Source: an uncultured delta proteobacterium
GTDB lineage: Bacteria; Desulfobacterota; RBG-13-43-22
DNA: 64,000 nucleotides
Direction: 5' to 3'
NCBI GenBank assembly: GCA_963821645.1
Contig: CAWGEQ010000039.1
Span: 5,766-69,765 of the forward strand
The notes beneath the pieces were generated by a model, which worked only from the letters and a program-made list of their open reading frames with translations, did no database searches and had not been told where the DNA came from. Made by a program: the position numbers and the translations under genes. Each line of letters opens with the position of its first letter. Within the stretch, counting starts at the first letter, position 1. Shown here piece after piece: positions 13,432 to 60,196 of the stretch.

Positions 13432-13447
13432 TTGACTCCTTAGTTCA

Positions 13448-13599
13448 TGTCCATCCGGAAACAGTATCTTTCCGGATGGAGCGGTCAGCTATCAGCTGTT
13501 AGCTTTCAGCAAAATCTTTTACATTAATGAGTTAGCTGAATGCTGATCGCTGACTGCTAAAAGCTTCATCCGGGAATTTTGGATTTCCGGATGAGAATA
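13448..13599. mobile_element. MITE-like copy (R3) of the tccggaaa/TCAGCTN element inserted in the rimO leader
   Basis: 152 bp between TTCA (13444-13447) and TTCA (13600-13603). The paralogous leader at 15401-15420 has a single TTCA and no insert. Confidence 0.6.
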
Positions 13600-14062: not shown

Positions 14063-14188
14063 AATTCGCCACGGTGCTGAAGGTCATACGGGTCCTCGGC
14101 TTGCGCCTGCACGCAACAACGGCACATTCATAACCTTCATCCCGGAAAGATAGCTCACCTGGGCGGATGGGCGGTTCCTAATATTCCC
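14063..14188. repeat. ~126-bp direct repeat, left copy, flanking higBA
   Basis: Aligns with 15042-15168 (aattcgcc..gtgctgaaggtcatacg...gcacgcaacaacggcacatt.ataaccttcatcccgg...ggcggatgg.cggttcc.aatatt). Internal dyad tgaaggtcat / ataaccttca. Confidence 0.7.
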
Positions 14189-14228
14189 CCAACTTATATT
14201 GTGTACCCGGAAAATCGTAATTTTTTTC

Positions 14229-15041: not shown

Positions 15042-15168
15042 AATTCGCCCACAGTGCTGAAGGTCATACGAGCTCTGGGCTTAGCGCTTGCACGCAACAA
15101 CGGCACATTGATAACCTTCATCCCGGTAGATCTAATCCCTTTCCGGCGGATGGACGGTTCCAATATTG
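15042..15168. repeat. ~127-bp direct repeat, right copy, flanking higBA
   Basis: See 14063-14188. Confidence 0.7.
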
Positions 15169-15346
15169 CTCCCCAGTCCTTTAACCGGATTGAACTCAGA
15201 CCGACAGTACACAGAAATTTCTAAATGGAATGAAGAACCTCCCCTGGATCACTGGAAATTAATCCTGACAAATTTCGGCCCTACTCCCAAATTGGTCAAA
15301 TTGTCCCCTAATTGTCAATATAAAAGATTTGATCCCAATTACTTCG

Positions 15347-15445
15347 GAGGGGTCGAGGATTCGAGGGTTTCGATTTTGGGTTTGATTTGCTTTTCATTTG
15401 ACTCCTTGGTTCACCACGAGACACCGAGGACACCGAGTAAAATCC
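15347..15445 (-). repeat. duplicate of the rimO RBS plus first ~17 codons and the CACNGAG repeat
   Basis: Reverse complement reads gattttactcggtgtcctcggtgtctcgtggtgaaccaaggagtcaaatgaaaagcaaatcaaacccaaaatcgaaaccctcgaatcctcg. Matches 13365-13443 plus 13600-13630. Confidence 0.75.
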
Positions 15446-15736: not shown

Positions 15737-16651
15737 TTATCCGCCATAACTGCGAACCGTATAGAGATCTATGGCCGCGAACATAACCCCATAAAAGAAC
15801 AACCATAAGGGAACGGCTTGCCAGACAAAACCCTTTTCCCTTGCCCTCCGGGATTCCAACAACCCTAAAAATTGAACCAGGACAAAACATTCCACGGCAA
15901 AGGGCGGAAACCCGAAAAATCCTAAGACCGGCATTTCAAACAGCTTACTATTTCCCACCCAGGGAACGGCGTATACCCATTTGGCCTCGGCCCAAAAATT
16001 CCAAAATTCCCAGAGAAGGCCGCAGATCATTCCGGATAAAAGGAATTGAAGAAGGGTCCCGATTCTCCCCGCTTCCAGATCTTTCAAAAGGGAAGATCTC
16101 CCCGTGCGGTGGTTAAATGGCTCTAAAAGAAAAATAAAACCTATCCAAACCAGGGGAAAGCAGAAAAGCGGAAGGGTTAGAGGGAGTATGAGGCACAAGG
16201 TACCGGTGACGATCAAAGGCCGGTACCAGGACGGTTGAACGCGAACAGGAGTCAGGCGGCTTTTTTCAAAAATCCCCCAGGCCCATAGAAGGTCTCTGGT
16301 CTCCAGGATGGCCGGCAGGACCGTACCAAAAGCCACAAAATAGCCCGGCCAGCGCAGAAAGATGGATTTCGGCACCCCCAGATAATACCAGTTTTTAAGG
16401 ATCAGGTTGAATCCTTCAAAGATGAGCCAGATCACCACCGACCAGGGTATTAACAGGAAAAACTGCCTGGTCCGGTTGACAATCAGGGAATTCCCTTTCC
16501 GCCGATAGACCAGGCCGTCCACCATCAGGATATAAGACCACCAGACGAGCGAGTAAAAATAGGTGGTCACCGGCCGGAGCCTATAAACCAAGGCGATCTC
16601 AAAGACAACCAGGCCAGCCAGACCTATCCAGAGGTGAATCCCTTTTTTCAT
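15737..16651 (-). CDS. integral membrane protein, family not recognised
   Basis: 304 aa, about 8 hydrophobic segments, W/F-rich. Confidence 0.6.
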   Translation of the reverse strand: MKKGIHLWIGLAGLVVFEIALVYRLRPVTTYFYSLVWWSYILMVDGLVYRRKGNSLIVNRTRQFFLLIPWSVVIWLIFEGFNLILKNWYYLGVPKSIFLRWPGYFVAFGTVLPAILETRDLLWAWGIFEKSRLTPVRVQPSWYRPLIVTGTLCLILPLTLPLFCFPLVWIGFIFLLEPFNHRTGRSSLLKDLEAGRIGTLLQFLLSGMICGLLWEFWNFWAEAKWVYAVPWVGNSKLFEMPVLGFFGFPPFAVECFVLVQFLGLLESRRAREKGFVWQAVPLWLFFYGVMFAAIDLYTVRSYGG

Positions 16652-16767
16652 ATTTAGTCTTTGATGTTATCGTGTTTCTCTTTGTAAGGTGGACGCAGGC
16701 GGGGCAGGCGCCGGGGGGGGTGTCTGGCGAAAGCAGGGTTCAAGGAGTCAAGGGGCAAGGTTTCAAG

Positions 16768-18341
16768 ACATAAAGGCTTGAAGTTAAAAAAAGCGACCTG
16801 CCCCTTATCATCGTGGGTTATATTAGGGAGTGATCCCAATACAGAGCCAAAAATAAGGAGGCAGGTCATGAAACATTTTATCACAGTTGTCGGTATGGAT
16901 GTACACAAAGATTCCATAGAGATTGTAATCGCCGAAACCACAGGAACTCAAGAAGTTCGGCATTACGGAAAAATTAACGGCGACATGGCCTCATTGGACA
17001 AAGCAGTCAGAAAACTCAAAAGTACCAGTAGGGAACTGCACTTTGTCTATGAAGCTGGGCCATGTGGCTATGAGATTTACCGTCACCTATCCTCGCAGGG
17101 GTTTACTTGTGTGGTCGTTGCCCCCTCGAAGACTCCAAGACGGAGCGGCGACCGAATCAAAAACGATCGTCGCGATGCCGAGACACTGGCCCGGCTTTAT
17201 CGGGCCGGGGAGTTAACCCCAGTCTATGTTCCTCGACAGGACGACGAAGCCATGAGGGATTTGAACCGCGCCCGGGAAGATGCGGTCAAGGCCTTGCGCA
17301 CTGCCCATCAAGACTTAGGGGCTTTTCTGCTTCGGTATGGCCACAGGTACCCCGGTAAAACATCCTGGACACCTGCTCATATGCGTTGGCTATCGGACGT
17401 CACCATGCCTCACCCGGCCCAGCAGATTACGCTTCAGGAATATATCCACACGGTAAACGAGGGCACTCTGCGAGTCGGTCGTTTAGTCGACCAGATTCTG
17501 AAGCTGTTGCCCCAAGGGCGCCTGGCCCCAGTGGTTGAAGCCCTCCAGGCCCTCAGAGGGGTGGCTCCTATTGTGGCTATAACCACGGTCTCTGAGATCG
17601 GCGATATAACTCGTTTTGAGAACCCCCGGCAGTTTATGGCCTATCTGGGTCTGATTCCCTCGGAACACTCCAGCGGCCAGTCCGTCAAACGGGGCAGCAT
17701 CACCAAAACCGGCAATGGCCACGTCAGGCGCGTTCTCGTTGAAGCGGCGCAGGCCTATAGCTATCCGGCCCGGATAAGCAGGTTTCTGCTCAAACGACAA
17801 CAGGGACTGCCGCTGCCCTTCCGGGACATTGCCTGGAAAGCCAGGTTAGACTCTGCGGCCGGTTCAGAAGGCTTATGGCCCAAGGAAAAATGAAAACCAA
17901 AGTGGTCACCGCCATTGCCCGCGAGCTCTCCGGCTTCATGTGGGCTATTGCCAGGGAAGTTGATTTACAAAACGTGTAAGGTATGTCAAAAAACAAAACT
18001 TCTTAAAGGAGTACAGAGACAACAAATTATATCCTATCCAGGGGACCAGCAGAGACGCGACCACATTGGGAGAATCCTCGAGGAATCCAAGGAATAAGGT
18101 CATCCGAATTTCCGATCCTAGAGCGAGGCAGCTCCTGTGACGAAGTCAAGTCAGGCGTTCAAAATACGCGAATATCAGAATGATCAAACGTCGCTAAATC
18201 GGTCCCGTCTCTGCTTGTGCCCTGGATTAAAGTGAAAGGCTAACCCTCTACTAAGGGCCAGGAAGAATCTTTTTCTCTTGACAACTGTCAGCCATATCGG
18301 ATTCCGGCTTTCGCCGGAATGACGGATGGAAAAAATTAAAT
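16768..18341 (+). mobile_element. IS110-family insertion sequence (boundaries approximate)
   Basis: Transposase gene plus ~100 nt 5' and ~350 nt 3' non-coding sequence. The ~1.57-kb unit lies between inverted heptamer arms 16736-16767 (gggttcaaggagtcaaggggcaagg) and 18342-18363 (cccttgaaccctcgaatcctgg). Confidence 0.5.
16868..17979 (+). pseudogene. IS110-family DEDD transposase, C-terminal frameshift near 17838 (or sequencing error)
   Basis: MKHFITVVGMDVHKDS..., YEAGPCGY, RIKNDRRDA, TTVSEIGDITRFENPRQFMAYLGLIPSEHSSG..GSITKTGNGHVRR. After AWKA the canonical tail QVRLCGRFRRLMAQGKMKTKVVTAIARELSGFMWAIAREV continues in the +1 frame to TAA 17977-17979. Confidence 0.85.
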
Positions 18342-18406
18342 CCCTTGAACCCTCGAATCCTGGAAACAAAAGGATTTTCTTTGAGCTCCTTTTGACCCTA
18401 CTTAAA

Positions 18407-19304: not shown

Positions 19305-19403
19305 AAGGTATAAGGTCCACGGTTTACGGGTTTTTAACCTTGGACCTCATACCTTGCACCTTTCACCTTTCACCTTGACCTTGAACCTTATACCTTGCAC
19401 CTT
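19305..19403. repeat. inverted AAGGTNC / GNACCTT heptamer array
   Basis: 19305-19324 pairs with 19336-19355 at 18/20, followed by further ACCTT-type units. Confidence 0.8.
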
Positions 19404-19407: not shown

Positions 19408-20151
19408 TCAAATCGCCACCAACTCCATCTTCCCCCAGACGCCTACCTGATCCCCAATAATGATCAAGACCCCTTCCACCTGGGGAATCTGCCGGGCCCA
19501 ATCCAAGGCCGGTTGAATATCGTTTTTGGTCTGTACCCGGTTACCTACGGCCGTAGCCAGGGCATCGGAGAGCACAGCCGAAGGAGATAACAGGGTTACC
19601 GCATCGGCCTTGCCGAAGCTTAGAGAATGACCCACCGTGCCCGACGAAGTGCAGAGTCCTCTGGGTGTTGGAGATGGGTCCAGCCGGATTCCTAATCTCT
19701 GACTCAAAGGAGACTGCCCGGCATAAATCCCGATGGTCAAAGGTTCAGGGCAAAGGATAAATAAATCCCCGCCGTTTTCAATGATAATGTCCTTCGATTC
19801 GGCCAATAAATCCTGACCGACAAATTGGGCCATGGCCCCGGCCACGGCCGCCATGGGGCCGACTCCGGCAATCCGAGCGGCTTGAAGCATGGCCTGGACA
19901 ATAGGCGGGGCCAGGGGGTCCAAGGCCAGGGGCTGGAGTGCTTCCTTGAATTCAGGGTTTTGTCGGATATAACTTTCCAGGGCATGGCGGTATTGATAAA
20001 CCCGTTCATACCCTTCGGCCGAAAGATTTTTCCTGGCCCGCACCCAGAGGTCGGTTTCTTTGACCTGGACGGTGAAAGAGACCCAATCCGGAGAATTGAT
20101 TTTACTGCGGTAGAACCGTTCCTGATGTTCAATCATAATAAAATGGTTCAA
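19408..20151 (-). CDS. UPF0280 / ApbE-like family protein
   Basis: 247 aa. GVGPMAAVAGAMAQFVG, IIENGGDLF, CTSSGTVGHSLSFGKADAVT, LSDALATAVGN. Confidence 0.7.
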   Translation of the reverse strand: MNHFIMIEHQERFYRSKINSPDWVSFTVQVKETDLWVRARKNLSAEGYERVYQYRHALESYIRQNPEFKEALQPLALDPLAPPIVQAMLQAARIAGVGPMAAVAGAMAQFVGQDLLAESKDIIIENGGDLFILCPEPLTIGIYAGQSPLSQRLGIRLDPSPTPRGLCTSSGTVGHSLSFGKADAVTLLSPSAVLSDALATAVGNRVQTKNDIQPALDWARQIPQVEGVLIIIGDQVGVWGKMELVAI

Positions 20152-20407
20152 GGTACAAGGTGCAAGGTTCGAGGTTAAAGGTCAAGGATCGAGGATCGAA
20201 CATCAAGGTCTAAGGTACAAGGTACAAGGTTCAAGGTTCAGAAGGTCCAAGGTCTGAGGTCACAAACCGTCCAAGTACCTTGCCTTTGTACTGACAAGCT
20301 ATGGTTTCCAACGGTTTATGCATCCAATACACGGCTTACGGCTTTTCCTTATCCCCTTGAACCTTGAACTTTTTACCTTGTGCCTTAAACCTTGAACCTT
20401 AAACCTT
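20145..20407. repeat. inverted AAGGTNC / GNACCTT heptamer array filling the whole UPF0280-dnaE spacer
   Basis: Left arm 20145-20262 (about 16 units), unique centre, right arm 20354-20407. Confidence 0.8.
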
Positions 20408-20410: not shown

Positions 20411-23400
20411 CTATGGATAAACCACTTCCAAAATCGGATGGCAGGAGATGCCCTTTAGTTCTCTTCTTAACCTGGCCGAAGGCCGGATATTCTGGGTTTC
20501 CGGAAGGTTCAACAGGACCTGGCTTTTATCGGGAAGACAGGCGCAAATCTGGACCGGACAGGCGCCGGGATGTCCCTTTAAAAAATCGGATAACTCGATG
20601 ATCCGATCCCGGGTCAGACCTTCTACCGGAATCTTGAGAACGGCCTGCTGGGCCATTTTTTCTTCGGCCTCGGTCAGGAGCAGCATATCATTGGCAATCA
20701 CCTTGATCCCTTTTTCATCCTTGGTGGTAAACCCGGCAATCCACAAGGGACCTTCTTCTTTCAGGACCGTCGATGATTTTCGGTAAACATCCGAAAAAAT
20801 GATGACCTCACAGGAGCCGGTCAGATCTTCAATGGTGGCAAAGGCCATCCGCTCCCCTTTTTTGCTGTTGATCTCTTTCAAGGCCGCCACCATACCGACC
20901 AAACGCACATTTTCTTTGTCCTCATAGTCGGCCAAGGCCTGGATATCGACTGTCTTTAAGTCCGGTAAACTCTCGGCATAGCGGGTCAGGGGATGGCCGG
21001 TGATATAAAAACCCAGGATTTCCTTTTCATAGGAAAGCTTTTGGCTCTCTCTCCATTCTTCAGCCATCGGAGGCTCGATATCGGGGCGGGTTAACCCCGA
21101 ATCTCCTCCCATGGAAAAAAGACTGAACTGATTTTCGGTCTGTTCTTTTTGACGCTGCTGCCCTATCTCCAGGGCTTCGGGTAAAAAGGCCATCAGCCTG
21201 GCCCGGGCCACTCCCAGGGAATCAAAGGCCCCGCATTTAATCAGGCTTTCCACCACCCGGCGATTCACCCGGCGAAGATCCACCCGCTGACAAAAATCGA
21301 TCAGGGACTTGAAGGCCCCCTCCTTCTTTCTGGCCTCGAGGATGGACTCAATGGCCCCGGCCCCGACATTTTTCACCGCCGCCAACCCGAAACGGATCTT
21401 GTCTTCCACCACGGCAAAATCCAATGGACTCAGGTTCACATCGGGCGGCAGGACCACGATCCCTTTTTCCCGGCATTCGGTGATGCATTTGGTCACTTCC
21501 GTTGAATTGCCCATCTTGCTGGTCACCAAAGCGACCATAAAATCCAGAGGATAATGGGCCTTCAGATAGGCGGTCTGGTAGGTAATCAGGGCATAGGCGG
21601 CACTGTGGGACTTGTTGAAACCGTAGCCGCCGAAGGTCTCCATATTTTTAAAAATGGCTTCGGCCTTCTTTTGATCGATTTTTTTCTTTTTGGTCCCATC
21701 CAGAAAGCGGCTTTTCTGCTGGGCCATGACCTCGGGGATCTTTTTACCCATGGCCTTGCGCAAGATGTCGGCCTCTCCCATGGAATAATCGGCCATCAGA
21801 CCGGCGATCTGCATAACCTGCTCCTGATAGACGATAATCCCCAGGGTTTCTTTCAATACCCCTTCCAGGAGGGGATGCGGATATTCTACCGGTACTTCCC
21901 CATGTTTTCTCTTGATATAATCCGCCACCATCCCGCTATTTAAAGGGCCGGGGCGATAGAGGGCATTGAGGGCGATGAGGTCTTCAAAATTCTGGGGTTG
22001 GCTCTTGATCAAAAGGTCCTTCATGCCCGAACTTTCCAATTGAAACACCCCGGTAGTATCCCCTCGGGCTAATAGTTGGTAAGTTTCCGGATCATCCAAG
22101 GGGATCCGAATCAAATCAATCTTGAGGCCGTGGGTCCGTTCGATGGTCCTTAAGGCATACTGGATGATGGTCAGGTTGTTCAAGCCCAGGAGGTCGAACT
22201 TGATCAGGCCCATTTCCTGGACCGATTTCATTTCATACTGGGTCAGGATTTCACCCTTGGGGCCTTTGTATAAGGGAACGGTCTCGGTGATGGGATGGGG
22301 GGAAATGACCACGCCGGCGGCGTGGGTGGAGGCATGGCGGGGAAGTCCCTCCAGGGCTTCGGCAATGGTCAGCAGTTCTTTAATGGTCGGATCGGTTTCC
22401 TTCAGCTCTTTAAGCCGGGGCTCCGCCTCGAGGGCTTCTTTTAAAGTAATGTTTAATTTCGAAGGGATCAGCTTGGCGATCTTATCCACTTCGCCATAAG
22501 GGATATTCAGGGCCCGCCCCACATCCCGAATGACGGCCCGGGCCTGCATCTTTCCAAAAGTGATGATCTGGGCCACATGCTCTTGCCCATATTTCCCGGC
22601 AATGTATTTCAAGACCTCATCCCGCCGTTCTACGCAGAAATCCACGTCGATATCCGGGAGTTCTTTTCGTTCCAGGTTCAGAAAGCGCTCAAAGATCAGG
22701 CCGTAATCCAAAGGATCGATATCGGTAATCCCCAGGGAATAGGCCACCAGACTCCCGGCCCCGGAACCCCGGCCGGGTCCGACCGGAATCCCTTGCTGCT
22801 TGGCAAACCCCACATAATCGGCCACGACCAAAAAATATCCGGAAAATCCCGTTGTGGTGATTACCATCAGTTCCTTTTCCAGGCGGTCCCGATACTCTTT
22901 AAAACGCGACGGGGGAAAGGAGGGATCCAGTTGTTCCTTCATTGACAGTCTTTTCTCCAGACCGGCGCGGGCCTCATTTTTAAGCCGGCCGTCCATGGTC
23001 TCTTCCGGGGGCAAGGGATAGCGGGGGAGAAAAGATTGGCCGAAGTTCAATTCCAGGTTGCAGCGATCGGCAATGCGCAGGGTATTTTGGATGGCTTCCG
23101 GCAAGTCTGAAAAAAGGGCCGTCATCTCTTCCGGTGATTTGAAATAAAGCTGATTGGTGGAAAAACGCAACCGGTTGGGGTCTTCAACGGTCTTCCCGGT
23201 CTGGATGCAAAGCAAGACGTCATGGGCCTTGGACTCTTCCTGGGTCAGGTAATGACAATCGTTGGTGGCCACGATGGGTATGCCCAACTGACGGTGGATC
23301 TCCAGCAACCCCTTATTGACGATTTCCTGCTCGGGGATATCGTTTTTTTGCAGTTCAAGAAAAAAACGATCCTGATCGAAGATCTCGGCCATTTCCCGGG

Positions 23401-23836
23401 TGATTTTTAAAGCCCGGTCATAGTCGTTATTAAGCAAGGCATAGGGGATTTCGCCGTGAAGACAGGCCGACAGGGCGATCAATCCTTTATGATGCTCCTT
23501 CAGAAGCTCCCGGTCGATCCTGGGTTTATAATAAAAACCTTCAAAATAGGCCTGGGTCACCAATTTGACTAAGTTACGATAACCCTTTTCATTTTTGCAG
23601 AGCAAGACCAAGTGGAAGGCGTTTTCCCTGTGGGGATGGCCCTCTTTATCAAAGCGGCTTCCCGGGGCCACATACATTTCGCAGCCGATGATGGGTTTCA
23701 GTCCATGTTTCTGGGCCTGTTTATAAAACTCCACCATGCCGAAGATGTTGCCGTGATCGGTCATGGTTATGGCCGGGAGTTTGAAGGCCTGGGCCTTTTC
23801 AAACAACTCTTTGAGCCTTATCTCACCATCCAGCAA
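20411..23836 (-). CDS. dnaE: DNA polymerase III alpha subunit, downstream duplicate: complete C-terminus, lacks native start
   Basis: 1141 aa with PHP, polymerase core, OB and C-terminal domains. Frame is open only from a stop at 23915-23917. First usable start is TTG 23836, so the first 17 aa including part of HLHLHTQYS are missing. Confidence 0.85.
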   Translation of the reverse strand: MLDGEIRLKELFEKAQAFKLPAITMTDHGNIFGMVEFYKQAQKHGLKPIIGCEMYVAPGSRFDKEGHPHRENAFHLVLLCKNEKGYRNLVKLVTQAYFEGFYYKPRIDRELLKEHHKGLIALSACLHGEIPYALLNNDYDRALKITREMAEIFDQDRFFLELQKNDIPEQEIVNKGLLEIHRQLGIPIVATNDCHYLTQEESKAHDVLLCIQTGKTVEDPNRLRFSTNQLYFKSPEEMTALFSDLPEAIQNTLRIADRCNLELNFGQSFLPRYPLPPEETMDGRLKNEARAGLEKRLSMKEQLDPSFPPSRFKEYRDRLEKELMVITTTGFSGYFLVVADYVGFAKQQGIPVGPGRGSGAGSLVAYSLGITDIDPLDYGLIFERFLNLERKELPDIDVDFCVERRDEVLKYIAGKYGQEHVAQIITFGKMQARAVIRDVGRALNIPYGEVDKIAKLIPSKLNITLKEALEAEPRLKELKETDPTIKELLTIAEALEGLPRHASTHAAGVVISPHPITETVPLYKGPKGEILTQYEMKSVQEMGLIKFDLLGLNNLTIIQYALRTIERTHGLKIDLIRIPLDDPETYQLLARGDTTGVFQLESSGMKDLLIKSQPQNFEDLIALNALYRPGPLNSGMVADYIKRKHGEVPVEYPHPLLEGVLKETLGIIVYQEQVMQIAGLMADYSMGEADILRKAMGKKIPEVMAQQKSRFLDGTKKKKIDQKKAEAIFKNMETFGGYGFNKSHSAAYALITYQTAYLKAHYPLDFMVALVTSKMGNSTEVTKCITECREKGIVVLPPDVNLSPLDFAVVEDKIRFGLAAVKNVGAGAIESILEARKKEGAFKSLIDFCQRVDLRRVNRRVVESLIKCGAFDSLGVARARLMAFLPEALEIGQQRQKEQTENQFSLFSMGGDSGLTRPDIEPPMAEEWRESQKLSYEKEILGFYITGHPLTRYAESLPDLKTVDIQALADYEDKENVRLVGMVAALKEINSKKGERMAFATIEDLTGSCEVIIFSDVYRKSSTVLKEEGPLWIAGFTTKDEKGIKVIANDMLLLTEAEEKMAQQAVLKIPVEGLTRDRIIELSDFLKGHPGACPVQICACLPDKSQVLLNLPETQNIRPSARLRRELKGISCHPILEVVYP

Positions 23837-23938
23837 GCTGTACTGGGTATGGAGATGGAGATGGACAAACGGGGCTTGAGAACGGCTGCTGGGCCATTTT
23901 TTCTTCGGCCTCGGTCAGGAGCTGCATATCATTGGCAA

Positions 23939-26900
23939 TCACCTTGATCCCTTTTTCGCCTTGGTGGTAAACCCGGCAATCCACAAGGGACCTTCTTCTT
24001 TCAGAACCGTCGATGATTTTCGGTAAACATGAGAAAAAATGATGACCTCACAGGAGCCGGTCAGATCTTCAATGGTGGCAAAGGCCATCCGCTCCCCTTT
24101 TTTGCTGTTGATCTCTTTTAAGGCCGCCACCATACCGACCAAACGCACATTTTCTTTGTCCTCATAGTCGGCCAAGGCCTGGATATCGACTGTCTTTAAG
24201 TCCGGTAAACTCTCGGCATAGCGGGTCAGGGGATGGCCGGTGATATAAAAACCCAGGATTTCCTTTTCATAGGAAAGCTTTTGGCTCTCTCTCCATTCTT
24301 CAGCCATCGGAGGCTCGATATCGGGGCGGGTTAATCCAGAATCTCCTCCCATGGAAAAAAGACTGAACTGATTTTCGGTCTGTTCTTTCTGACGCTGCTG
24401 CCCTATCTCCAGGGCTTCGGGTAAAAAGGCCATCAGCCTGGCCCGGGCCACTCCCAGGGAATCAAAGGCCCCGCATTTAATCAGGCTTTCCACCACCCGG
24501 CGATTCACCCGGCGAAGATCCACCCGCTGACAAAAATCGATCAGGGACTTGAAGGCCCCCTCCTTCTTTCTGGCCTCTAAGATGGACTCAATGGCCCCGG
24601 CACCGACATTTTTCACCGCCGCCAACCCGAAACGGATCTTGTCTTCCACCACGGCAAAATCCAATGGACTCAGATTCACATCGGGCGGCAGGACCACGAT
24701 CCCTTTTTCCCGGCATTCGGTGATGCATTTGGTCACCTCCGTTGAATTGCCCATCTTGCTGGTCACCAAAGCGACCATAAAATCCAGAGGATAATGGGCC
24801 TTCAGATAGGCGGTCTGGTAGGTAATCAGGGCATAAGCGGCGCTGTGGGACTTGTTGAAACCGTAGCCGCCAAAGGTTTCCATATTTTTAAAAATGGCTT
24901 CGGCCTTCTTTTGATCAATTTTTTTCTTTTTGGTCCCATCCAGAAAGCGGCTTTTCTGCTGGGCCATGACCTCGGGGATCTTTTTACCCATGGCCTTGCG
25001 CAAGATGTCGGCCTCTCCCATGGAATAATCGGCCATCAGACCGGCGATCTGCATAACCTGCTCCTGATAGACGATAATCCCCAGGGTTTCTTTCAATACC
25101 CCTTCCAGGAGGGGATGCGGATATTCTACCGGTACTTCCCCATGTTTTCTCTTGATATAATCCGCCACCATCCCGCTATTTAAAGGGCCGGGGCGATAGA
25201 GGGCATTGAGGGCGATGAGGTCTTCAAAATTCTGGGGTTGGCTCTTGATCAAAAGGTCCTTCATGCCCGAACTTTCCAATTGAAACACCCCGGTAGTATC
25301 CCCTCGGGCCAATAGTTGGTAAGTTTCCGGATCATCCAAGGGGATCCGAATCAAATCAATCTTGAGGCCGTGGGTCCGTTCGATGGTCCTTAAGGCATAC
25401 TGGATGATGGTCAGGTTGTTCAAGCCCAGGAGGTCGAACTTGATCAGGCCCATATCCTGGACCGATTTCATTTCATACTGGGTCAGGATTTCACCCTTGG
25501 GGCCTTTATATAAGGGAACGGTCTCGGTGATGGGATGGGGGGAAATGACCACGCCGGCGGCGTGGGTGGAGGCATGGCGGGGAAGTCCCTCCAGGGCTTC
25601 GGCAATGGTCAGCAGTTCTTTAATGGTCGGATCGGTTTCCTTCAGCTCTTTAAGCCGGGGCTCCGCCTCAAGGGCTTCTTTTAAAGTAATGTTTAATTTC
25701 GAAGGGATCAGCTTGGCGATCTTATCCACTTCGCCATAAGGGATATTCAGGGCCCGCCCCACATCCCGAATGACGGCCCGGGCCTGCATCTTTCCAAAAG
25801 TGATGATCTGGGCCACATGCTCTTGCCCGTATTTCCCGGCAATGTATTTTAAGACCTCATCCCGCCGTTCTACGCAGAAATCCACGTCGATATCCGGGAG
25901 TTCTTTTCGTTCCACGTTCAGAAAGCGCTCAAAGATCAGGCCGTAATCCAACGGATCGATATCGGTAATCCCCAGGGAATAGGCCACCAGACTCCCGGCC
26001 CCGGAACCCCGGCCGGGTCCGACCGGAATCCCTTGCTGCTTGGCAAACCCCACATAATCGGCCACGACCAAAAAATATCCGGAAAATCCCGTTGTGGTGA
26101 TTACCGTGAGTTCCTTTTCCAGGCGGTCCCGATACTCTTTAAAACGCGACGGGGGAAAGGAGGGATCCAGTTGTTCCTTCATGGACAGTCTTTTCTCCAG
26201 ACCGGCGCGGGCCTCATTTTTAAGCCGGCCGTCCATGGTCTCTTCCGGGGGCAAGGGATAGCGGGGGAGAAAAGATTGGCCGAAGTTCAATTCCAGGTTG
26301 CAACGATCGGCAATGCGCAGGGTATTTTGGATGGCTTCCGGCAAGTCTGAAAAAAGGGCCGTCATCTCTTCCGGTGATTTGAAATAAAGCTGATTGGTGG
26401 AAAAACGCAACCGGTTGGGGTCTTCAACGGTCTTCCCGGTCTGGATGCAAAGCAAGACGTCATGGGCCTTGGCCTCTTCCTGGGTCAGATAATGACAGTC
26501 ATTAGTAGCCACTATGGGGAGACCCAACTGACGGCTGATTTCCAACAAACCCTTGTTGACGATTTCCTGTTCCGGGATATCATTCTTTTGCAGTTCAAGA
26601 AAAAAACGATCCTGATCGAAGATCTCGGCCATTTCCCGGGTGATTTTTAAAGCCCGGTCATAGTCTTTATTAAGCAAGGCATAGGGGATTTCGCCGTGAA
26701 GACAGGCCGACAGGGCGATCAATCCTTTATGATGCTCCTTCAGGAGTTCCCGGTCGATCCTGGGTTTATAATAAAAACCTTCGAAATAGGCCTGGGTCAC
26801 CAATTTGACTAAGTTACGATAACCCTTTTCATTTTTGCAGAGCAAGACCAGGTGGAAGGCGTTTTCCCTGTGGGGATGGCCCTCTTTATCGAAGCGGCTT

Positions 26901-27124
26901 CCCGGGGCCACATACATTTCGCAGCCGATGATGGGTTTCAGTCCATGTTTCTGGGCCTGTTTATAAAACTCCACCATGCCGAAGATGTTGCCGTGATCGG
27001 TCATGGTTATGGCCGGGAGTTTGAAGGCCTGGGCCTTTTCAAACAACTCTTTGAGCCTTATCTCCCCATCCAGCAAGCTGTACTGGGTATGGAGATGGAG
27101 ATGGACAAACGGGGCGTGGGGCAT
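23939..27124 (-). CDS. dnaE: DNA polymerase III alpha subunit, upstream duplicate: native start, C-terminally truncated by a 1-nt deletion
   Basis: Starts MPHAPFVHLHLHTQYSLLDG (ATG 27124). Collinear with the other copy, with 8 aa differences. Ends ...GFTTKAKKGSR, about 100 aa short. Confidence 0.85.
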   Translation of the reverse strand: MPHAPFVHLHLHTQYSLLDGEIRLKELFEKAQAFKLPAITMTDHGNIFGMVEFYKQAQKHGLKPIIGCEMYVAPGSRFDKEGHPHRENAFHLVLLCKNEKGYRNLVKLVTQAYFEGFYYKPRIDRELLKEHHKGLIALSACLHGEIPYALLNKDYDRALKITREMAEIFDQDRFFLELQKNDIPEQEIVNKGLLEISRQLGLPIVATNDCHYLTQEEAKAHDVLLCIQTGKTVEDPNRLRFSTNQLYFKSPEEMTALFSDLPEAIQNTLRIADRCNLELNFGQSFLPRYPLPPEETMDGRLKNEARAGLEKRLSMKEQLDPSFPPSRFKEYRDRLEKELTVITTTGFSGYFLVVADYVGFAKQQGIPVGPGRGSGAGSLVAYSLGITDIDPLDYGLIFERFLNVERKELPDIDVDFCVERRDEVLKYIAGKYGQEHVAQIITFGKMQARAVIRDVGRALNIPYGEVDKIAKLIPSKLNITLKEALEAEPRLKELKETDPTIKELLTIAEALEGLPRHASTHAAGVVISPHPITETVPLYKGPKGEILTQYEMKSVQDMGLIKFDLLGLNNLTIIQYALRTIERTHGLKIDLIRIPLDDPETYQLLARGDTTGVFQLESSGMKDLLIKSQPQNFEDLIALNALYRPGPLNSGMVADYIKRKHGEVPVEYPHPLLEGVLKETLGIIVYQEQVMQIAGLMADYSMGEADILRKAMGKKIPEVMAQQKSRFLDGTKKKKIDQKKAEAIFKNMETFGGYGFNKSHSAAYALITYQTAYLKAHYPLDFMVALVTSKMGNSTEVTKCITECREKGIVVLPPDVNLSPLDFAVVEDKIRFGLAAVKNVGAGAIESILEARKKEGAFKSLIDFCQRVDLRRVNRRVVESLIKCGAFDSLGVARARLMAFLPEALEIGQQRQKEQTENQFSLFSMGGDSGLTRPDIEPPMAEEWRESQKLSYEKEILGFYITGHPLTRYAESLPDLKTVDIQALADYEDKENVRLVGMVAALKEINSKKGERMAFATIEDLTGSCEVIIFSHVYRKSSTVLKEEGPLWIAGFTTKAKKGSR

Positions 27125-27133
27125 CTTTAATCC

Positions 27134-27355
27134 AGGTATAAGGTACAAGGTGCAAGGTGTAAGGTTAAAAACAACAAACTTCCTCTATGCTTTGAGCTTA
27201 TTTGTTTGCAATATATTTTTCTCCCTCTTACATCCCACATCTTATCCCTTGCCTCCTGATCCCTTAATTCTTTGGGTTTGCACCCTGCGTCTTAACCTTG
27301 CACCTTGGACCTTATACCTTGAACCCTTCACCTTGTACCTTGGGCCTTGCACCTT
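27134..27355. repeat. inverted AAGGTNC / GNACCTT heptamer array (dnaE-guaA spacer)
   Basis: Left arm 27134-27167, ~125-nt centre, right arm 27293-27355. Confidence 0.8.
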
Positions 27356-28934: not shown

Positions 28935-28970
28935 GGTTTAAGGTTCAAGGTATAAGGTCTACGGTTGAGG
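28935..28970. repeat. AAGGTNC-type arm flanking the four-helix-bundle gene
   Basis: ggtttaaggttcaaggtataaggtctacggttgagg. 13-nt perfect complement (caaggtataaggt) to 29365-29398. Confidence 0.75.
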
Positions 28971-28978
28971 AAAAAACA

Positions 28979-29335
28979 TTAATTCTTTGATCTGGCTTGA
29001 ATCAATTTTGTTAACATACTTGAAATGGCTTGACATTCATTCTGTATGTGGATGAGATTTTCCTGATTTATGTAACCTATTTCAAAAGAAATAAGCGCTT
29101 GTGTTAATAGTTCGGCCAGAGAACCTTTAGCCATAAAAAAATACTGAACAGATTGCTTGTTGGTTTTTAATTCATCTCCTTCTGCGATATTGCTCGGAAC
29201 GGATACCGCAGCCCGACGAATCTGGTCTCTCAAACCATAATCTTTGGAAAAAGGTCCTTCATTGGTTAATTGGTAAATAAAAACGGCCAAAATTTTTGCT
29301 CGTTGCCAGACTTTTAAGTCGAAGAAGTTTCCCAT
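28979..29335 (-). CDS. four-helix-bundle protein (23S rRNA intervening-sequence protein family)
   Basis: 118 aa. DLKVWQRA, LRDQIRRAAVSVPSNIAEG, AKGSLAELLTQ. More AT-rich than guaA/guaB. Confidence 0.85.
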   Translation of the reverse strand: MGNFFDLKVWQRAKILAVFIYQLTNEGPFSKDYGLRDQIRRAAVSVPSNIAEGDELKTNKQSVQYFFMAKGSLAELLTQALISFEIGYINQENLIHIQNECQAISSMLTKLIQARSKN

Positions 29336-29364: not shown

Positions 29365-29397
29365 TACCTTGGACCTTACACCTTATACCTTGGACCT

Positions 29398-29398
<1 letters not shown>
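29365..29398. repeat. GNACCTT-type arm flanking the four-helix-bundle gene
   Basis: taccttggaccttacaccttataccttggacctt. Abuts the guaB stop codon. Confidence 0.75.
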
Positions 29399-31029
<1,631 letters not shown>

Positions 31030-34616: not shown

Positions 34617-34716
34617 AAGCGGTCAGCCGTCAGCTTTTAGCTTTCAGCGAACCCCGCCACCATTACATGAAATTGATTTTCGGCGAACGTTGAACGTTAA
34701 AGAACCTTGAACGGTA
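34617..34716. repeat. hybrid spacer: TCAGCTN-type units followed by GAACGTT/GAACCTT units
   Basis: gcggtcagccgtcagcttttagctttcagcg ... gaacgttgaacgttaaagaaccttgaacgg. Confidence 0.5.
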
Positions 34717-35269: not shown

Positions 35270-35284
35270 GAATACAGCTCCTAA

Positions 35285-35323
35285 AGCTCTTAGCTATTAG
35301 CTGTCAGCTTTCAGCTTTCAGCT
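35285..35323. repeat. TNAGCTN-type heptamer arm
   Basis: agctcttagctattagctgtcagctttcagctttcagc. Roughly complementary to 35676-35708. Confidence 0.65.
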
Positions 35324-35375: not shown

Positions 35376-35668
35376 TCATTCATAATCAAAGTTGTTTAAA
35401 AAACCTAAATCGTGGGCAAGTAATAGATGATATTCCAACTCACTGGCGGAACCCATAGCTATTTGAAAAAAGCGGGCCATTTCAGCTTCGCTATTTCTGC
35501 CACACCCTTCCGCAATATTGGCCGGGAATAGAGATACAGGCCCTTCTAACCTGGCTGGTCAATCCGTAACAATTCTTCCTTTGGAAAGCTTAATGTCTTC
35601 TTATACACTTTCAGAGTTAATTGATGGCTTTTCTGCCAAACCATCAATTCTTTAAAATTTTTCAGATG
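35376..35668 (-). pseudogene. decayed four-helix-bundle (23S rRNA IVS-protein family) gene
   Basis: Minus strand reads [40 protein letters not shown]. The +1 frame then reads [47 protein letters not shown]. No start codon, one frameshift. Confidence 0.7.
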
Positions 35669-35675: not shown

Positions 35676-35708
35676 CGCTTTCAGCTGAATCGCTAATCGC
35701 TAATTGCT
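35676..35708. repeat. GCTNANN-type heptamer arm
   Basis: cgctttcagctgaatcgctaatcgctaattgc. Overlaps the 3' end of the beta-subunit gene. Confidence 0.6.
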
Positions 35709-43715: not shown

Positions 43716-45002
43716 ATGTTGGACCTAAAACTGATTCGGGAACGGTTGGCCTGGGTCAAGGATCGGCTGTCCCTGCGCGGCCAGGATTTGCCCTGGGAAA
43801 CCTTTGAGTCTTTAGATAAGGAACGCCGGGAGATCCTCCAAGAGACAGAGTCCTTAAAGCACCGTCGCAATGTGGTTTCCGAGCAGATCGGCAGGAAGAA
43901 ACAGGAAAAACAAGAGGCCCGGGAAGCCATTGAGGAAATGCGTCAAGTTTCAAAAAGGATCAAGGAATTTGATGATGCCTTAACCCTGATTGAAGAGAAA
44001 TTCTCGGCCATACTGCTTACCTTGCCCAATATTCCTCATGAATCGGTTCCCGTCGGTTATTCCAGCGATGACAACCCGGTCGTTCGCACCTGGGGCGACA
44101 AACCGATTTTTTCTTTCTCCCCCCGGCCCCACTGGGAGATCGGAGAAGCCTTGGATATCCTCGACTTCGAAAGGGCCACCCGGATGACCGGGGCCCGTTT
44201 TGTAGTTTATAAAGGGCCGGGGGCCAGACTGGAACGGGCCCTGATCAATTTTATGCTCGACCTGCACACCAAAACCCATGGATACACCGAAATCCTCCCC
44301 CCTTTCATGGTCAACAGCCAAAGCATGACCGGCACCGGTCAATTGCCCAAATTTAGGGATGAGCTGTTTAAATTGGAAGGATGGGATTATTATTTGATCC
44401 CCACGGCCGAAGTGCCGGTGACCAACCTCTTTCAGCAGGAAACCCTTTCCGCCCAGGAACTGCCCAAATATTTTGTGGCCTGTACCCCTTGCTTTCGATC
44501 CGAAGCCGGTTCTTACGGCAAAGATACCCGTGGCCTTATACGCCAGCATCAGTTCAACAAAGTGGAGTTGGTGAAATTCAGTCTCCCTGAAGATTCTTAC
44601 GCCGAGCTGGAAGCTTTGCTGGGAAACGCCGAAGAGGTCCTTAAACGGTTGCAGTTGCCCTATCAGGTGGTCAGCCTTTGTACCGGCGATCTGGGGTTTT
44701 CTTCGGCCAAGACCTATGATATCGAAGTATGGCTCCCCGGACAAAATCTATACCGGGAAATATCTTCCTGCAGCAATTTTGAAGATTTTCAGGCTCGCCG
44801 GGCCAATATCCGTTTTCGTCGGGAAGGCAGGTCCAAGACCGAGCTGGTCCACACCTTGAATGGCTCCGGCTTGGCTGTGGGCCGAACCCTGGTAGCCCTC
44901 TTAGAAAACTACCAGCAAGCCGACGGCAGCATCCTGATCCCGCCGGCCTTGCAGCCTTACATGGACGGCATCGAGCGGATAACCAAAAGGTGCAAGGTAT
45001 AA
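43716..45002 (+). CDS. serS: seryl-tRNA synthetase
   Basis: 428 aa. N-terminal coiled coil, class II motifs ([16 protein letters not shown]). Confidence 0.95.
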
Positions 45003-45091
45003 GGTATAAGGTTCAAGATACAAGAAAAAATTTAAAAACCTTACGACCTTGGCATCAACCCGTGAACCTTATACCTTGGACCGTGGACCTT
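44987..45091. repeat. inverted heptamer array between convergent serS and queD
   Basis: aaggtgcaaggtataaggtataaggttcaag ... aaccttacgaccttgg..gtgaaccttataccttggaccgtggacctt. The last 5 serS codons lie in the left arm. Confidence 0.75.
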
Positions 45092-52700: not shown

Positions 52701-52752
52701 AAGGTCAAAGGTCAAAGGTCAAAGGTCAAAGGTCAAAGGTCAACAGGTCAAA
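52701..52752. repeat. six perfect tandem AAGGTCA units plus one variant
   Basis: aaggtca x6 (52701-52742), then acaggtca. Confidence 0.9.
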
Positions 52753-60077: not shown

Positions 60078-60196
60078 CCGCATCCGGAAATTCAAGATTT
60101 CCGGATGCGGCGTTCAGCGTATGGCGTCGCGTTTAACCAAATCGATTTTTACAGGAGTTTTGCCGAAAGCTGAAAGCTGATCACTGATTGCTCCAT
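60078..60196. repeat. tccggaaa-hairpin / GCTGAAA element (R7), truncated at the right end
   Basis: Perfect 13-bp hairpin ccgcatccggaaa-ttcaaga-tttccggatgcgg (60078-60110) right after the peptidase stop, then gccgaaagctgaaagctgatcactgattgc. Confidence 0.7.

What the first reader, a model, noticed from the sequence alone, without database searches (positions are those of the whole stretch)
20145..20407. Core intergenic spacers are built from inverted arrays of degenerate heptamers (AAGGTNC ... GNACCTT)
The pattern occurs at 19305-19403, 20145-20407, 27134-27355, 28935-29398, 30902-31029, 44987-45091 and 52701-52752, and at the arms 16736-16767 / 18342-18363. Each spacer has tandem 7-nt units of the AAGGTNC type on the left (aaggtac aaggtgc aaggttc gaggtta aaggtca ...). 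The reverse-complement type lies on the right, around a unique centre of 11 to ~400 nt. Arms are partly complementary (19305-19324 vs 19336-19355 at 18/20), so long imperfect hairpins are possible in several registers. The arrays fill entire spacers between co-directional housekeeping genes (UPF0280|dnaE|guaA|guaB|ppx) and between convergent ones (serS/queD). The variable sixth position and variable unit number suggest slippage-type growth rather than copy-paste of one MITE. I do not recognise this as a described REP, BIME or MITE family.
Basis: seen in the sequence. Interest (0 to 1): 0.65.

Follow-up and report, generated by a model that had tools for sequence, protein, structure and literature searches.

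The report
Heptamer-repeat hairpins flanking four-helix-bundle genes
The gaps between housekeeping genes here are filled by hairpin elements built from 7-base repeats, a repeat class already described in Xanthomonas and cyanobacteria. What appears to be new is that these repeats consistently flank a small gene (PF05635) otherwise known from the intervening sequences that RNase III cuts out of 23S ribosomal RNA.

Summary
Fifteen chains of AAGGTNY or RNACCTT units (0.08 expected in shuffles) occupy the spacers. In seven spacers they form a pair, always AAGGT-arm then ACCTT-arm; one array is one-armed. A second family (TCAGCTN) and an 8-nt family are also present.

Related metagenomic genomes (synonymous divergence 0.7-1.1) keep the arms at every orthologous spacer. 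Unit number, the variable positions and the centre all change, which fits 7-nt slippage.

The kind is not new. Convergent inverted pairs of degenerate intergenic heptamers close to stop and start codons were described in Xanthomonas (GGGAATC) and Nostoc. This is a new member in a Thermodesulfobacteriota lineage.

One "spacer" contains a 118-aa PF05635 gene (23S-rRNA-IVS / S23p family) under purifying selection. A second, frameshifted paralog sits between TCAGCTN arms.

I found the same layout (purine-rich array, PF05635 gene, complementary array) in 16 plasmid loci, three Xanthomonadales loci (accB|accC), four metagenome contigs and a true 23S rRNA IVS in Azospirillum. Protein clades follow the unit type across phyla.

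Most likely these are IVS-like hairpin cassettes and their gene-less derivatives, with stems that RNase III would process. Function is inferred, not shown.

The parts
19305..19323 (.). AAGGTNY arm (3 units), spacer between the AbpE/UPF0280-like gene and the patatin gene
19337..19403 (.). RNACCTT arm (10 units), same spacer. It ends 4 nt from the stop codon of the upstream gene.
   Evidence: fold z = -3.7
20143..20260 (.). AAGGTNY arm in three blocks (about 15 units), dnaE|abpE spacer
20346..20407 (.). RNACCTT arm (9 units), dnaE|abpE spacer. It ends 3 nt from the dnaE stop codon.
   Evidence: fold z = -7.3 with the arms paired to each other
27133..27165 (.). AAGGTNY arm (5 units), guaA|dnaE spacer
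27295..27355 (.). RNACCTT arm (9 units), guaA|dnaE spacer. It ends 4 nt from the guaA stop codon.
   Evidence: fold z = -3.9
28940..28965 (.). AAGGTNY arm (4 units) on one side of the PF05635 gene. In the mRNA it is the 3' arm, lying just upstream of guaA.
28979..29335 (-). fhb1: 118-aa four-helix-bundle protein (PF05635 / TIGR02436, the 23S rRNA IVS protein or S23p family) in the loop of the guaB|guaA hairpin
   Evidence: NCBIfam TIGR02436 E 1e-32; Pfam PF05635 E 5e-34; PDB 2GSC XCC0516 E 6e-17; dN/dS 0.03-0.16; same syntenic position in relatives
29366..29398 (.). RNACCTT arm (5 units) on the other side of the PF05635 gene. It overlaps the guaB stop codon by 1 nt.
   Evidence: the minimum-free-energy fold pairs it with 28940-28965 and encloses the whole ORF, z = -4.0
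30895..30926 (.). Degenerate AAGGTNY-type arm (CGGTGCAAGGTTTACGGT...), ppx|guaB spacer
30997..31029 (.). RNACCTT arm (5 units), ppx|guaB spacer. It ends 1 nt from the ppx stop codon.
   Evidence: fold z = -1.8
44987..45019 (.). AAGGTNY arm (5 units) between the convergent genes serS and queD. The first units encode the last 5 codons of serS.
45066..45091 (.). RNACCTT arm (4 units), serS/queD spacer
   Evidence: fold z = -5.1, with an A-run and a T-run flanking the stem
52701..52748 (+). One-armed direct array (AAAGGTC) x 7, with no inverted partner
   Evidence: fold z = 0.1
35284..35323 (.). Arm of the second family (TYAGCTN, 6 units) on one side of fhb2
35379..35660 (-). fhb2: a second PF05635 paralog, about 35% identical to fhb1, split over three frames (a pseudogene or sequencing errors). 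It lies between the TPP-binding and gamma subunit genes of a 2-oxoacid:ferredoxin oxidoreductase.
   Evidence: tblastn; HMM hit; ortholog at L081 3850-4223; neighbouring genes
35676..35700 (.). Complementary arm of the second family (CAGCTGAATCGCTAATCGCTAAT) on the other side of fhb2
   Evidence: the fold pairs it with 35284-35323
34617..34649 (.). Solo array of the TCAGCNN family in the convergent spacer after the POR gamma subunit gene
13486..13511 (.). Solo array of the TCAGCTN family (4 units)
60161..60192 (.). Solo array of the same family in the opposite orientation (GAAAGCT units)
16736..16767 (.). G-rich arm of a related family with an 8-nt period (GGGTTCAA GGAGTCAA GGGGCAA GG)
16778..17893 (+). 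IS110-family transposase gene lying in the loop between the 8-nt-period arms
   Evidence: NF033542 E 2.8e-69; the relative L081 has the arm but no IS
18342..18363 (.). C-rich arm of the 8-nt-period family, just after the patatin stop codon

Best explanation
The spacers are occupied by a lineage-wide family of hairpin elements. Each element starts 0-5 nt after a stop codon with a tandem array of AAGGTNY units. A variable centre follows, and then a tandem array of the complementary RNACCTT units that ends shortly before the next gene.

Shown:
- This is the Thermodesulfobacteriota member of the known class of intergenic heptamer repeats (Xanthomonas GGGAATC, Nostocales heptamers).
- The arms change by steps of 7 nt.
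- The arms persist at orthologous sites although synonymous sites are nearly saturated.
- The same arms enclose PF05635 genes in this window, in four other phyla, and in a genuine 23S rRNA intervening sequence.

Inferred:
- After transcription the two arms pair in any of several registers and loop out the centre.
- As demonstrated for rRNA IVSs of the same build, the stem is a substrate for RNase III. This would let the cassette, or its gene-less remnant, sit between essential genes, or inside rRNA, without harm, and would separate the neighbouring cistrons.
- The arms are kept uniform by slippage and concerted evolution.
- The PF05635 pentamer is the probable trans-acting partner of its own repeat family.
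For: Anatomy and non-randomness:
- Lag-7 scan, chain counts and unit statistics.

Conservation with turnover:
- Relatives carrying fhb at 97%, 86% and 82% identity keep the order ppx-guaB-fhb-guaA-dnaE-abpE.
- Every spacer in them has both arms, with different unit numbers and centres.
- Perfect cores make up 70-78% of units in all four genomes, although dS of the flanking genes is 0.7-1.1.

Pairing:
- The minimum-free-energy folds pair the arms with each other, z = -3.7 to -7.3 for four solo spacers (-1.8 for ppx|guaB). The stem encloses the whole fhb1 and fhb2 ORFs.
- Orientation is always convergent: 7 of 7 in the window, and 14 convergent against 0 divergent partners in 80 metagenome loci.

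Link to PF05635:
- Two fhb genes in the window, each between its own repeat family.
- 16 plasmid loci. Upstream tandem score of at least 18 in 10 of 18 fhb genes against 2 of 109 control genes. Inverted flank match of at least 15/16 in 8 of 18 against 1 of 109.
- Xanthomonas, Lysobacter and Dyella carry accB|fhb|accC with GGGAATC and CCCATTC arms, while the other spacers in those loci are bare. Rehm's own table independently lists an array at XCC0516.
- All 4 fhb genes found in 440 kb around (AAGGTNN)5 arrays directly abut the array. None was found in 1.3 Mb of control loci.
- The Azospirillum fhb lies inside the LSU rRNA gene, and its stem is made of heptamer arrays.
- The fhb tree follows unit type across phyla. 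The fhb2 of this delta lineage groups with the Pseudanabaena and Calothrix proteins that have AGCT-type arms.

RNase III:
- The Coxiella IVS (S23p ORF, terminal inverted repeats, 3 heptamers whose number varies between strains) is cut by RNase III at the first repeat (PMC4990558).
Against: - No RNA data exist for this organism. Processing is inferred only by analogy with rRNA IVSs.
- Sense and antisense strands fold equally well (the sense strand is the more stable in 10 of 27 cases). There is therefore no strand-specific G-U signature to favour an RNA-level role over a DNA-level role.
- The variable positions of the two arms are only weakly coordinated. Fourteen of 18 informative spacers are more stable than unit-permuted controls, but none is individually significant and orthologs are not independent.
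- Arms can be very unequal: 10 units against 3 in abpE|pat.
- One array (52701-52748) has no partner, and 66 of 80 metagenome arrays showed none within 600 nt (17 of those lie near a contig end).
- PF05635 has no known biochemical activity, and in Coxiella the protein is probably not made.
- The plasmid sample is dominated by Nostocales and contains paralogous contexts.
Confidence: 0.55

Rival explanations
1. The arrays are neutral or selfish microsatellite hairpins. They arise and persist only through 7-nt replication slippage and intra-hairpin template switching, and they have no function. PF05635 genes and IS elements are found inside them only because a hairpin loop between genes is a safe landing site.
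For: - Unit number and centres turn over freely.
- An IS110 also sits in one loop.
- Variable positions are barely coordinated between arms, and there is no strand bias in folding.
- Mrazek's slippage idea for heptamers is cited.
Against: - The same unit family occupies at least 8 spacers, and its cores stay 70-78% perfect at dS 0.7-1.1.
- Orientation is always convergent.
- The arms abut stop and start codons.
- fhb is vertically inherited under purifying selection at one site, which does not look like a recent lander.
- fhb clade tracks unit type across phyla.
Confidence: 0.2
2. The arrays act at the DNA level as binding arrays for a protein, possibly the PF05635 pentamer or a nucleoid protein, as BIMEs do for IHF and gyrase. 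Alternatively they act as cruciforms affecting supercoiling or transcription.
For: - Hairpin potential is strand-symmetric.
- A 7-bp period puts every third unit on the same helix face, and Tandem Repeats Finder also reports periods of 14 and 21.
- In Nostoc, reporter assays show that heptamer repeats alter NtcA- and LexA-dependent promoter activity, and an unidentified binding partner is postulated (bioRxiv 10.1101/2022.06.06.494920).
Against: - In the one experimentally studied relative, the Coxiella IVS, the stem acts as RNA and is cut by RNase III.
- The arrays avoid divergent promoter spacers in the window and sit between co-directional or convergent genes.
- No DNA-binding motif is known in PF05635.
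Confidence: 0.15
3. The hairpins are bidirectional intrinsic terminators or attenuators that separate transcription units.
For: - Many elements have an A-run before the 5' arm and a T-run after the 3' arm.
- The serS/queD element looks like a bidirectional terminator.
- One terminator-like site lies at the end of the ppx|guaB 3' arm.
Against: - The terminator scan shows no enrichment: 29 sites found against 24 +/- 5 expected, and only one lies in a spacer.
- The stems are long, AU-rich and interrupted, unlike canonical terminators.
- The same arms enclose a translated gene, and in Azospirillum they lie inside 23S rRNA, where termination would be lethal.
Confidence: 0.07
4. The elements are copies of one MITE or REP family spread by a transposase.
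For: - They have an inverted-repeat architecture and many copies in intergenic DNA.
- IS110-family elements are known, from my own knowledge, to target REP-like repeats.
Against: - Centres are unrelated between copies, and only the arms match in self-BLAST.
- Length at a single orthologous site ranges from 83 to 285 nt.
- No target-site duplication or GTAG/CGTC head is visible in the sequences.
- No RAYT or other cognate transposase was seen among the window ORFs scanned.
Confidence: 0.03

Closest known systems
Intergenic heptameric simple-sequence repeats: Xanthomonas GGGAATC and Nostoc GGGGAYT (Rehm et al. 2015, PMC4692102); cyanobacterial STRR (Mazel et al. 1990, from memory); TAACTGA repeats (MacGregor 2015, PMC4679880)
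   Same: - Tandem degenerate 7-nt units, about 90% intergenic and within a few nt of stop or start codons.
- Convergent inverted pairs between co-directional housekeeping genes.
- Retained between related species with length variation.
- Several unit families per genome.
   Different: - The unit is AAGGTNY, with no GGG tracts, so the G-quadruplex reading proposed for Xanthomonas does not carry over.
- The host is a Thermodesulfobacteriota lineage.
- None of those papers connects the repeats to PF05635 genes.
23S rRNA intervening sequences (IVS) with an S23p ORF: Leptospira, Coxiella and others (Ralph & McClelland 1993, cited; Warrier et al. 2016, PMC4990558)
   Same: - Terminal inverted repeats form a stem that loops out a PF05635 ORF.
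- Heptamer repeats lie upstream of the ORF, and their copy number varies between strains (Coxiella).
- The Azospirillum IVS stem is built from inverted heptamer arrays.
   Different: - The elements here lie between protein-coding genes, not in helix 25 or 45 of 23S rRNA.
- Most copies have no ORF.
- RNase III cleavage has not been tested.
REP/REPIN elements and their RAYT genes (Bertels & Rainey 2011, PMC3116915, listed; further details from my own knowledge)
   Same: - Many short palindromic intergenic elements, plus a single vertically inherited gene flanked by its own repeat family.
- Different gene subfamilies go with different repeat families.
   Different: - REPs are single 20-40 nt palindromes with a GTAG or CGTC head, not tandem 7-nt arrays.
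- RAYT is a Y1 transposase, whereas PF05635 is a small four-helix bundle with no known catalytic activity.
Avd, the accessory protein of diversity-generating retroelements
   Same: The same four-helix-bundle superfamily (weak NCBIfam hit to DivGenRetAVD, E 3e-4). From my own knowledge, Avd is a pentameric protein that binds nucleic acid.
   Different: There is no reverse transcriptase, template repeat or variable repeat near any of the loci examined.

Membership tests
Intergenic heptameric SSR (STRR-like; Rehm 2015 class) | Head-to-tail tandem units of 7 nt | tested here: met
   The lag-7 scan gives 13 arrays against 0-2 for other lags. The step is 7 nt in 61 of 65 cases.
Intergenic heptameric SSR (STRR-like; Rehm 2015 class) | Intergenic, within about 0-50 nt of ORF ends | tested here: met
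   All arrays lie in spacers, and the arms end 0-5 nt from stop codons.
Intergenic heptameric SSR (STRR-like; Rehm 2015 class) | Frequent convergent inverted pairs | tested here: met
   7 of 7 pairs in the window are convergent. In metagenome loci, 14 are convergent and 0 divergent.
Intergenic heptameric SSR (STRR-like; Rehm 2015 class) | Kept at the same gene junctions in related genomes, with length variation | tested here: met
   Orthologous spacers in L081, L082, L084 and L086
G-quadruplex-forming heptamers (Rehm 2015 sub-type) | GGG tract in each unit | tested here: not met
   The units carry GG only (AAGGTNY) or no G run at all (TCAGCTN).
23S rRNA IVS element | Terminal inverted repeats forming a stem that loops out the element | tested here: met
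   The minimum-free-energy folds close the element through arm-arm pairing.
23S rRNA IVS element | PF05635 (S23p) ORF in the loop | tested here: met
   Met for 2 of about 9 elements: fhb1 at 28979-29335 and fhb2 at 35379-35660. The other elements have no ORF.
23S rRNA IVS element | Inserted in a 23S rRNA helix | tested here: not met
   The window has no rRNA; the only Rfam hit is one tRNA. The elements lie between protein-coding genes.
23S rRNA IVS element | Excised by RNase III | not testable with these tools
   Shown only for Coxiella and others in the literature
REP / BIME | Single 20-40 nt imperfect palindrome with a conserved GTAG or CGTC head | tested here: not met
   The arms are tandem 7-nt arrays that start with A-rich sequence followed by AAGGT. 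No such head is present in any copy.
REP / BIME | Cognate RAYT (Y1 transposase) gene | not tested
   Only about 20 window ORFs were scanned, and none was a Y1 transposase. The rest of the genome is unavailable.
MITE | Conserved internal sequence, uniform length and target-site duplication | tested here: not met
   Self-BLAST matches the arms only. Length at one orthologous site is 83-285 nt. No target-site duplication is seen.
Intrinsic terminator | Short GC-rich stem followed by a U tract | tested here: inconclusive
   T-runs often follow the 3' arm. The consensus scan found only one site in a spacer and no enrichment.
CRISPR array | 23-50 nt repeats separated by unique spacers | tested here: not met
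   The units are contiguous 7-mers.
REPIN-RAYT-like two-component system (analogy only) | A gene flanked by its own repeat family, with the gene clade co-varying with the repeat family | tested here: met
   fhb1 goes with AAGGTNY and fhb2 with TCAGCTN in the same genome. The tree groups proteins by unit type across phyla, with one exception, L188.

The most novel reading that the evidence does not exclude
PF05635 four-helix-bundle proteins (S23p, '23S rRNA IVS protein') and short-period, mostly heptamer, inverted arrays form one widespread two-part system, comparable to RAYT and REPINs.

- Each protein subfamily recognises, and perhaps maintains or spreads, its own repeat family.
- The hundreds of gene-less heptamer hairpins in Xanthomonas, Nostocales and this delta lineage are the non-autonomous partners.
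- The classical rRNA intervening sequences, and the PF05635 genes seen inside cas operons, are the same cassette landed in different transcripts.

This would name the long-sought binding partner of bacterial heptamer repeats and give PF05635 a function.
Probability: 0.35. Interest if true: 0.85.

Novelty: new member of a known kind. Interest (0 to 1): 0.62.

Why it matters
Taken alone, the arrays add one more lineage and one more unit (AAGGTNY) to a repeat class that has been described but never explained.

The wider value is the link found while checking them. In every lineage I could sample, PF05635 genes sit between inverted arrays of the genome's own short-period repeat. That sample covers five phyla and includes one true rRNA IVS. 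The protein clades also follow the repeat type.

This connects three separately reported observations:
- intergenic heptamer repeats,
- 23S rRNA intervening sequences,
- PF05635 genes described as 'CRISPR-associated'.

It also yields direct experiments: RNase III mapping at the arms, binding of the XCC0516 pentamer to GGGAATC arrays, and deletion of XCC0516 in Xanthomonas.

In the paper library I searched, only the Coxiella IVS paper notes heptamers next to an S23p gene, and it treats them as a local feature.

Tried and rejected
- Exact-protein look-ups of guaA, fhb and serS from the window found nothing, so the source genome is not in the collection.
- The guaA scan of reference genomes reached only 70% identity, to Thermodesulfobacteriota MAGs, so it gave no close orthologous spacers. 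It did show heptamer arrays with other units in 5 of 80 loci.
- A narrow fhb HMM and a broader one found no PF05635 gene in those 80 loci.
- The centres of the gene-less spacers show no remnant of an fhb ORF by relaxed tblastn. Derivation of the solo hairpins from fhb cassettes is therefore not shown.
- Rfam has no family matching the spacers.
- The promoter and terminator consensus scans show no enrichment.
- PADLOC gives no defence-system hit for fhb.
- The test for coordination of the variable positions between arms was weak.
- The sense-versus-antisense folding test showed no bias.
- G-quadruplex reading rejected: the units carry only GG or no G run.
- CsrA-type GGA sites considered and rejected: the core is AAGGT.
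- CRISPR, MITE and REP memberships rejected (see the membership table).
- Ralph & McClelland 1993 (PMC47033) could not be read.
Full report

Yes. The sequence at 20145-20407 and at the other listed sites reads as described.

- A scan for self-identity at a fixed lag finds 13 arrays at lag 7, and 0-2 at any lag from 4 to 12.
- Chains of at least three AAGGT or ACCTT cores spaced 6-8 nt occur 15 times in the window, against 0.08 per shuffle.
- The unit is AAGGTNY. Positions 1-5 are nearly invariant, position 6 is fully degenerate, and position 7 is C36 T20 A5. The step is 7 nt in 61 of 65 cases.
- All arrays lie between ORFs or overlap only a few terminal codons. The arms end 0-5 nt from the stop codon of the upstream gene.
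- At all seven paired sites the AAGGT arm is on the left and the ACCTT arm on the right. Because this is an inverted repeat, the purine-rich arm comes first on either strand.

Other repeat families are also present. A second heptamer family (TCAGCTN) occurs at 13486-13511, 34617-34649, 35284-35323, about 35676-35700 and 60161-60192. A family with an 8-nt period occurs at 13366-13401 and at 16736-16767 / 18342-18363.

**2. Gene context and organism**

The minus-strand genes are, in order:
- ppx (31031-32068)
- guaB
- a 118-aa PF05635 / TIGR02436 four-helix-bundle gene, here called fhb1 (28979-29335)
- guaA
- dnaE
- an AbpE/UPF0280-like gene
- a patatin gene

The "spacer" at 28935-29398 is therefore a gene flanked by the two arms.

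The closest reference genomes are Thermodesulfobacteriota MAGs, at only 70% GuaA identity. The source genome itself is not in the collections.

**3. Orthologous spacers**

Close homologs of fhb1 led to metagenomic contigs from relatives: L081 (97% identity), L082-L085 (86%) and L086-L093 (82%). All have the same gene order.

- Every orthologous spacer carries both arms in the same layout. The number of units, the variable positions and the centre differ. For example, dnaE|abpE is 275, 285, 83 and 165 nt long.
- Synonymous divergence of guaA and fhb1 between these genomes is 0.7-1.1. Even so, 70-78% of cores are perfect in each genome.
- The arms are therefore either under constraint or continually regenerated. 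Change in 7-nt steps fits replication slippage.
- fhb1 itself is under purifying selection (dN/dS 0.03-0.16, compared with 0.06-0.12 for guaA).

**4. Structure**

- In minimum-free-energy folds of the transcribed strand, the two arms pair with each other and close the whole spacer. Z-scores are -3.7, -7.3, -3.9, -1.8 and -5.1 for the five gene-less elements.
- For the two fhb elements the stem encloses the whole ORF (z = -4.0 and -2.2).
- The one-armed array at 52701-52748 gives no signal (z = 0.1).
- Pairing rests mainly on the AAGGT/ACCTT cores. The variable positions of the two arms are only weakly coordinated.
- Sense and antisense strands fold equally well. The data therefore do not say whether the hairpin matters as RNA or as DNA.
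- There is no Rfam match in the spacers.
- Consensus terminators and promoters are not enriched.

**5. What is already known**

Heptamer repeats are a described class.

- Rehm et al. 2015 (PMC4692102) report degenerate GGGAATC units in Xanthomonas. They are 89-93% intergenic, with 70-75 convergent inverted pairs, 3-30 nt from ORF ends, between co-directional housekeeping genes (gltB|gltD, groES|groEL, atpA|atpG, atpD|atpC). They are retained between two species with length variation.
- MacGregor 2015 (PMC4679880) describes TAACTGA repeats and cites the finding that heptanucleotide repeats are the most abundant long SSR class, with a slippage explanation.
- A Nostoc preprint shows effects of heptamer repeats on expression and postulates an unidentified binding partner.

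The arrays in this window are therefore a new member of a known kind, not a new kind.

**6. The link to PF05635**

A second fhb paralog lies at 35379-35660. It is about 35% identical to fhb1 and split by frameshifts. It sits between the TPP-binding and gamma subunit genes of an oxidoreductase and is flanked by inverted TCAGCTN-type arms. L081 has the same arrangement.

The only solved homolog of fhb1 is XCC0516 of Xanthomonas (PDB 2GSC). Rehm's own supplementary table lists a GGGAATC array between accB (XCC0517) and XCC0516.

I then sampled fhb genes elsewhere.

- *Plasmids.* A tblastn search against plasmids gave 23 records, mostly Nostocales. In the 16 loci I fetched, the gene is a small insert between other genes: cas6|cas4 twice, cmr2|cmr3, nrdB|nrdA, hlyD|ABC transporter, parA|parB. 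It is flanked by arrays of period 6-8 nt, purine-rich upstream and the reverse complement downstream.
- *Controls.* Compared with 109 control genes from the same loci, an upstream tandem score of at least 18 occurs in 10 of 18 fhb genes against 2 of 109 controls. An inverted flank match of at least 15/16 occurs in 8 of 18 against 1 of 109.
- *Xanthomonadales.* In Xanthomonas, Lysobacter and Dyella the gene lies between accB and accC. A GGGAATC-type arm starts right after the accB stop codon, and in Xanthomonas and Dyella the CCCATTC-type arm ends right at the accC ATG (in Lysobacter about 10 nt upstream of it). The neighbouring spacers are bare.
- *Metagenomes.* A scan for (AAGGTNN)5 hit at least 120 contigs. 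In the 80 loci returned (440 kb) an HMM found four fhb genes, and all four directly abut the matched array. One of them lies between cysD and cysN. None was found in 1.3 Mb of control loci.
- *A true rRNA IVS.* The Azospirillum lipoferum hit lies inside the 23S rRNA gene. Its stem is made of inverted heptamers (CAGAGGA CGGATGA ... / CCGTCCT CTGTCTT ...).
- *Coxiella.* Warrier et al. 2016 describe three GACAGAT heptamers upstream of the S23p ORF in the Coxiella IVS, with strain-variable copy number and RNase III cleavage at the first repeat.

A neighbour-joining tree of the proteins groups them by repeat type rather than by host.
- The delta-lineage fhb2 (TCAGCTN) groups with Pseudanabaena (AAAGCTA) and Calothrix (TTAGCTG).
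- fhb1 groups with the cysD|cysN protein and another AAGGT-flanked protein.
- The two GGCAGAA-flanked proteins pair, as do the two GGGAA-type proteins.
- There is one exception, L188.

In the searchable paper library I found no paper that generalises this link.

**7. Most likely mechanism**

Shown:
- The elements are hairpin-forming arrays that change in 7-nt steps.
- They are conserved in place.
- They have the same build as the arms of PF05635 cassettes and of rRNA IVSs.

Inferred:
- In the transcript the arms pair in any of several registers and loop out the centre.
- The stem is cut by RNase III, as in rRNA IVSs. This would make the cassette or its gene-less remnant harmless between essential genes and would separate the cistrons.
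- The PF05635 pentamer is the probable partner of its own repeat family, by analogy with RAYT and REPINs.

Rivals:
- neutral slippage hairpins that merely offer safe landing sites,
- DNA-level protein-binding arrays,
- bidirectional terminators,
- a MITE family.

Each is scored, with evidence for and against, in the Rival explanations section. MITE, REP and CRISPR memberships fail the defining features I could test.

**8. Verdict**

The arrays are a new member of a known kind. The unexpected result is the consistent, cross-phylum association with PF05635 genes and rRNA IVSs, which is testable and appears to be unreported as a general rule.

Noticed in passing
window 20633-23875 and 23875-27115: A head-to-tail 3.24-kb duplication inside dnaE at 98.15% identity gives two truncated dnaE ORFs (1141 and 1069 aa). 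Relatives have a single 1157-aa dnaE. This is probably an assembly artefact that joined two strain variants.
   Followed up: partly
window 16736-18363: An IS110-family transposase gene (16778-17893, plus strand) sits in the loop between the two arms of an 8-nt-period hairpin downstream of the patatin gene. The relative L081 keeps the 5' arm but has no IS.
   Followed up: partly
window 27125-27241 (minus strand); L082 and L086 guaA|dnaE spacers: The centre of the guaA|dnaE hairpin carries a strong Shine-Dalgarno sequence and a 31-37 aa ORF (MWDVRGRKIYCKQ...). The ORF reads through the 3' arm and stops at or near the dnaE start. It is present in three of the four genomes and replaced in L081.
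   Followed up: partly
L081 12025-12130 versus the dnaE|abpE centres (window 20255-20350; L081 15770-15900): A 24-35 nt piece of the dnaE|abpE centre occurs in inverted orientation in the guaA|dnaE centre of L081 (96% over 24 nt). This suggests that sequence is exchanged between hairpin centres.
   Followed up: partly
window 44987-45002: The last five codons and the stop codon of serS are made of array units, so the array has extended into or replaced the C-terminus.
   Followed up: no
L014 5392-8010 (MAG 'bacterium Yes70-08'): (CAATCCG)n heptamer arrays lie in frame inside the leuS ORF, where they are translated as IRNPQSA-type repeats, as well as in the adjacent spacers.
   Followed up: no
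window 9803-10180 / 10560-10951; 10563-10707 / 13450-13594; 14063-14191 / 15042-15175; 13387-13447 / 15353-15413: Another set of dispersed repeats (81-97% identity, both direct and inverted) lies in the 9.8-15.5 kb region, which is lower in G+C. They are unrelated to the heptamer arms.
   Followed up: no
L095, L098 (cas6|fhb|cas4); L106 (cmr2|fhb|cmr3): PF05635 genes inside cas operons were previously read as CRISPR-associated (PMC3936711). They carry the same flanking heptamer arrays, so they may simply be cassette insertions between operon genes.
   Followed up: partly
L108 8792-11990 (Azospirillum lipoferum 4B plasmid AZO_p2): The 23S rRNA gene contains a PF05635 ORF, that is, a classical IVS. 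Its stem is built from inverted degenerate heptamers.
   Followed up: yes
L102 (Nostoc sp. C052 plasmid), e.g. 1586-1811, 5949-6086, 12076-12159, 16032-16123: Many gene-less convergent array pairs from several 7- and 8-nt families lie within 20 kb, alongside one fhb gene flanked by GGGAACA arms.
   Followed up: no
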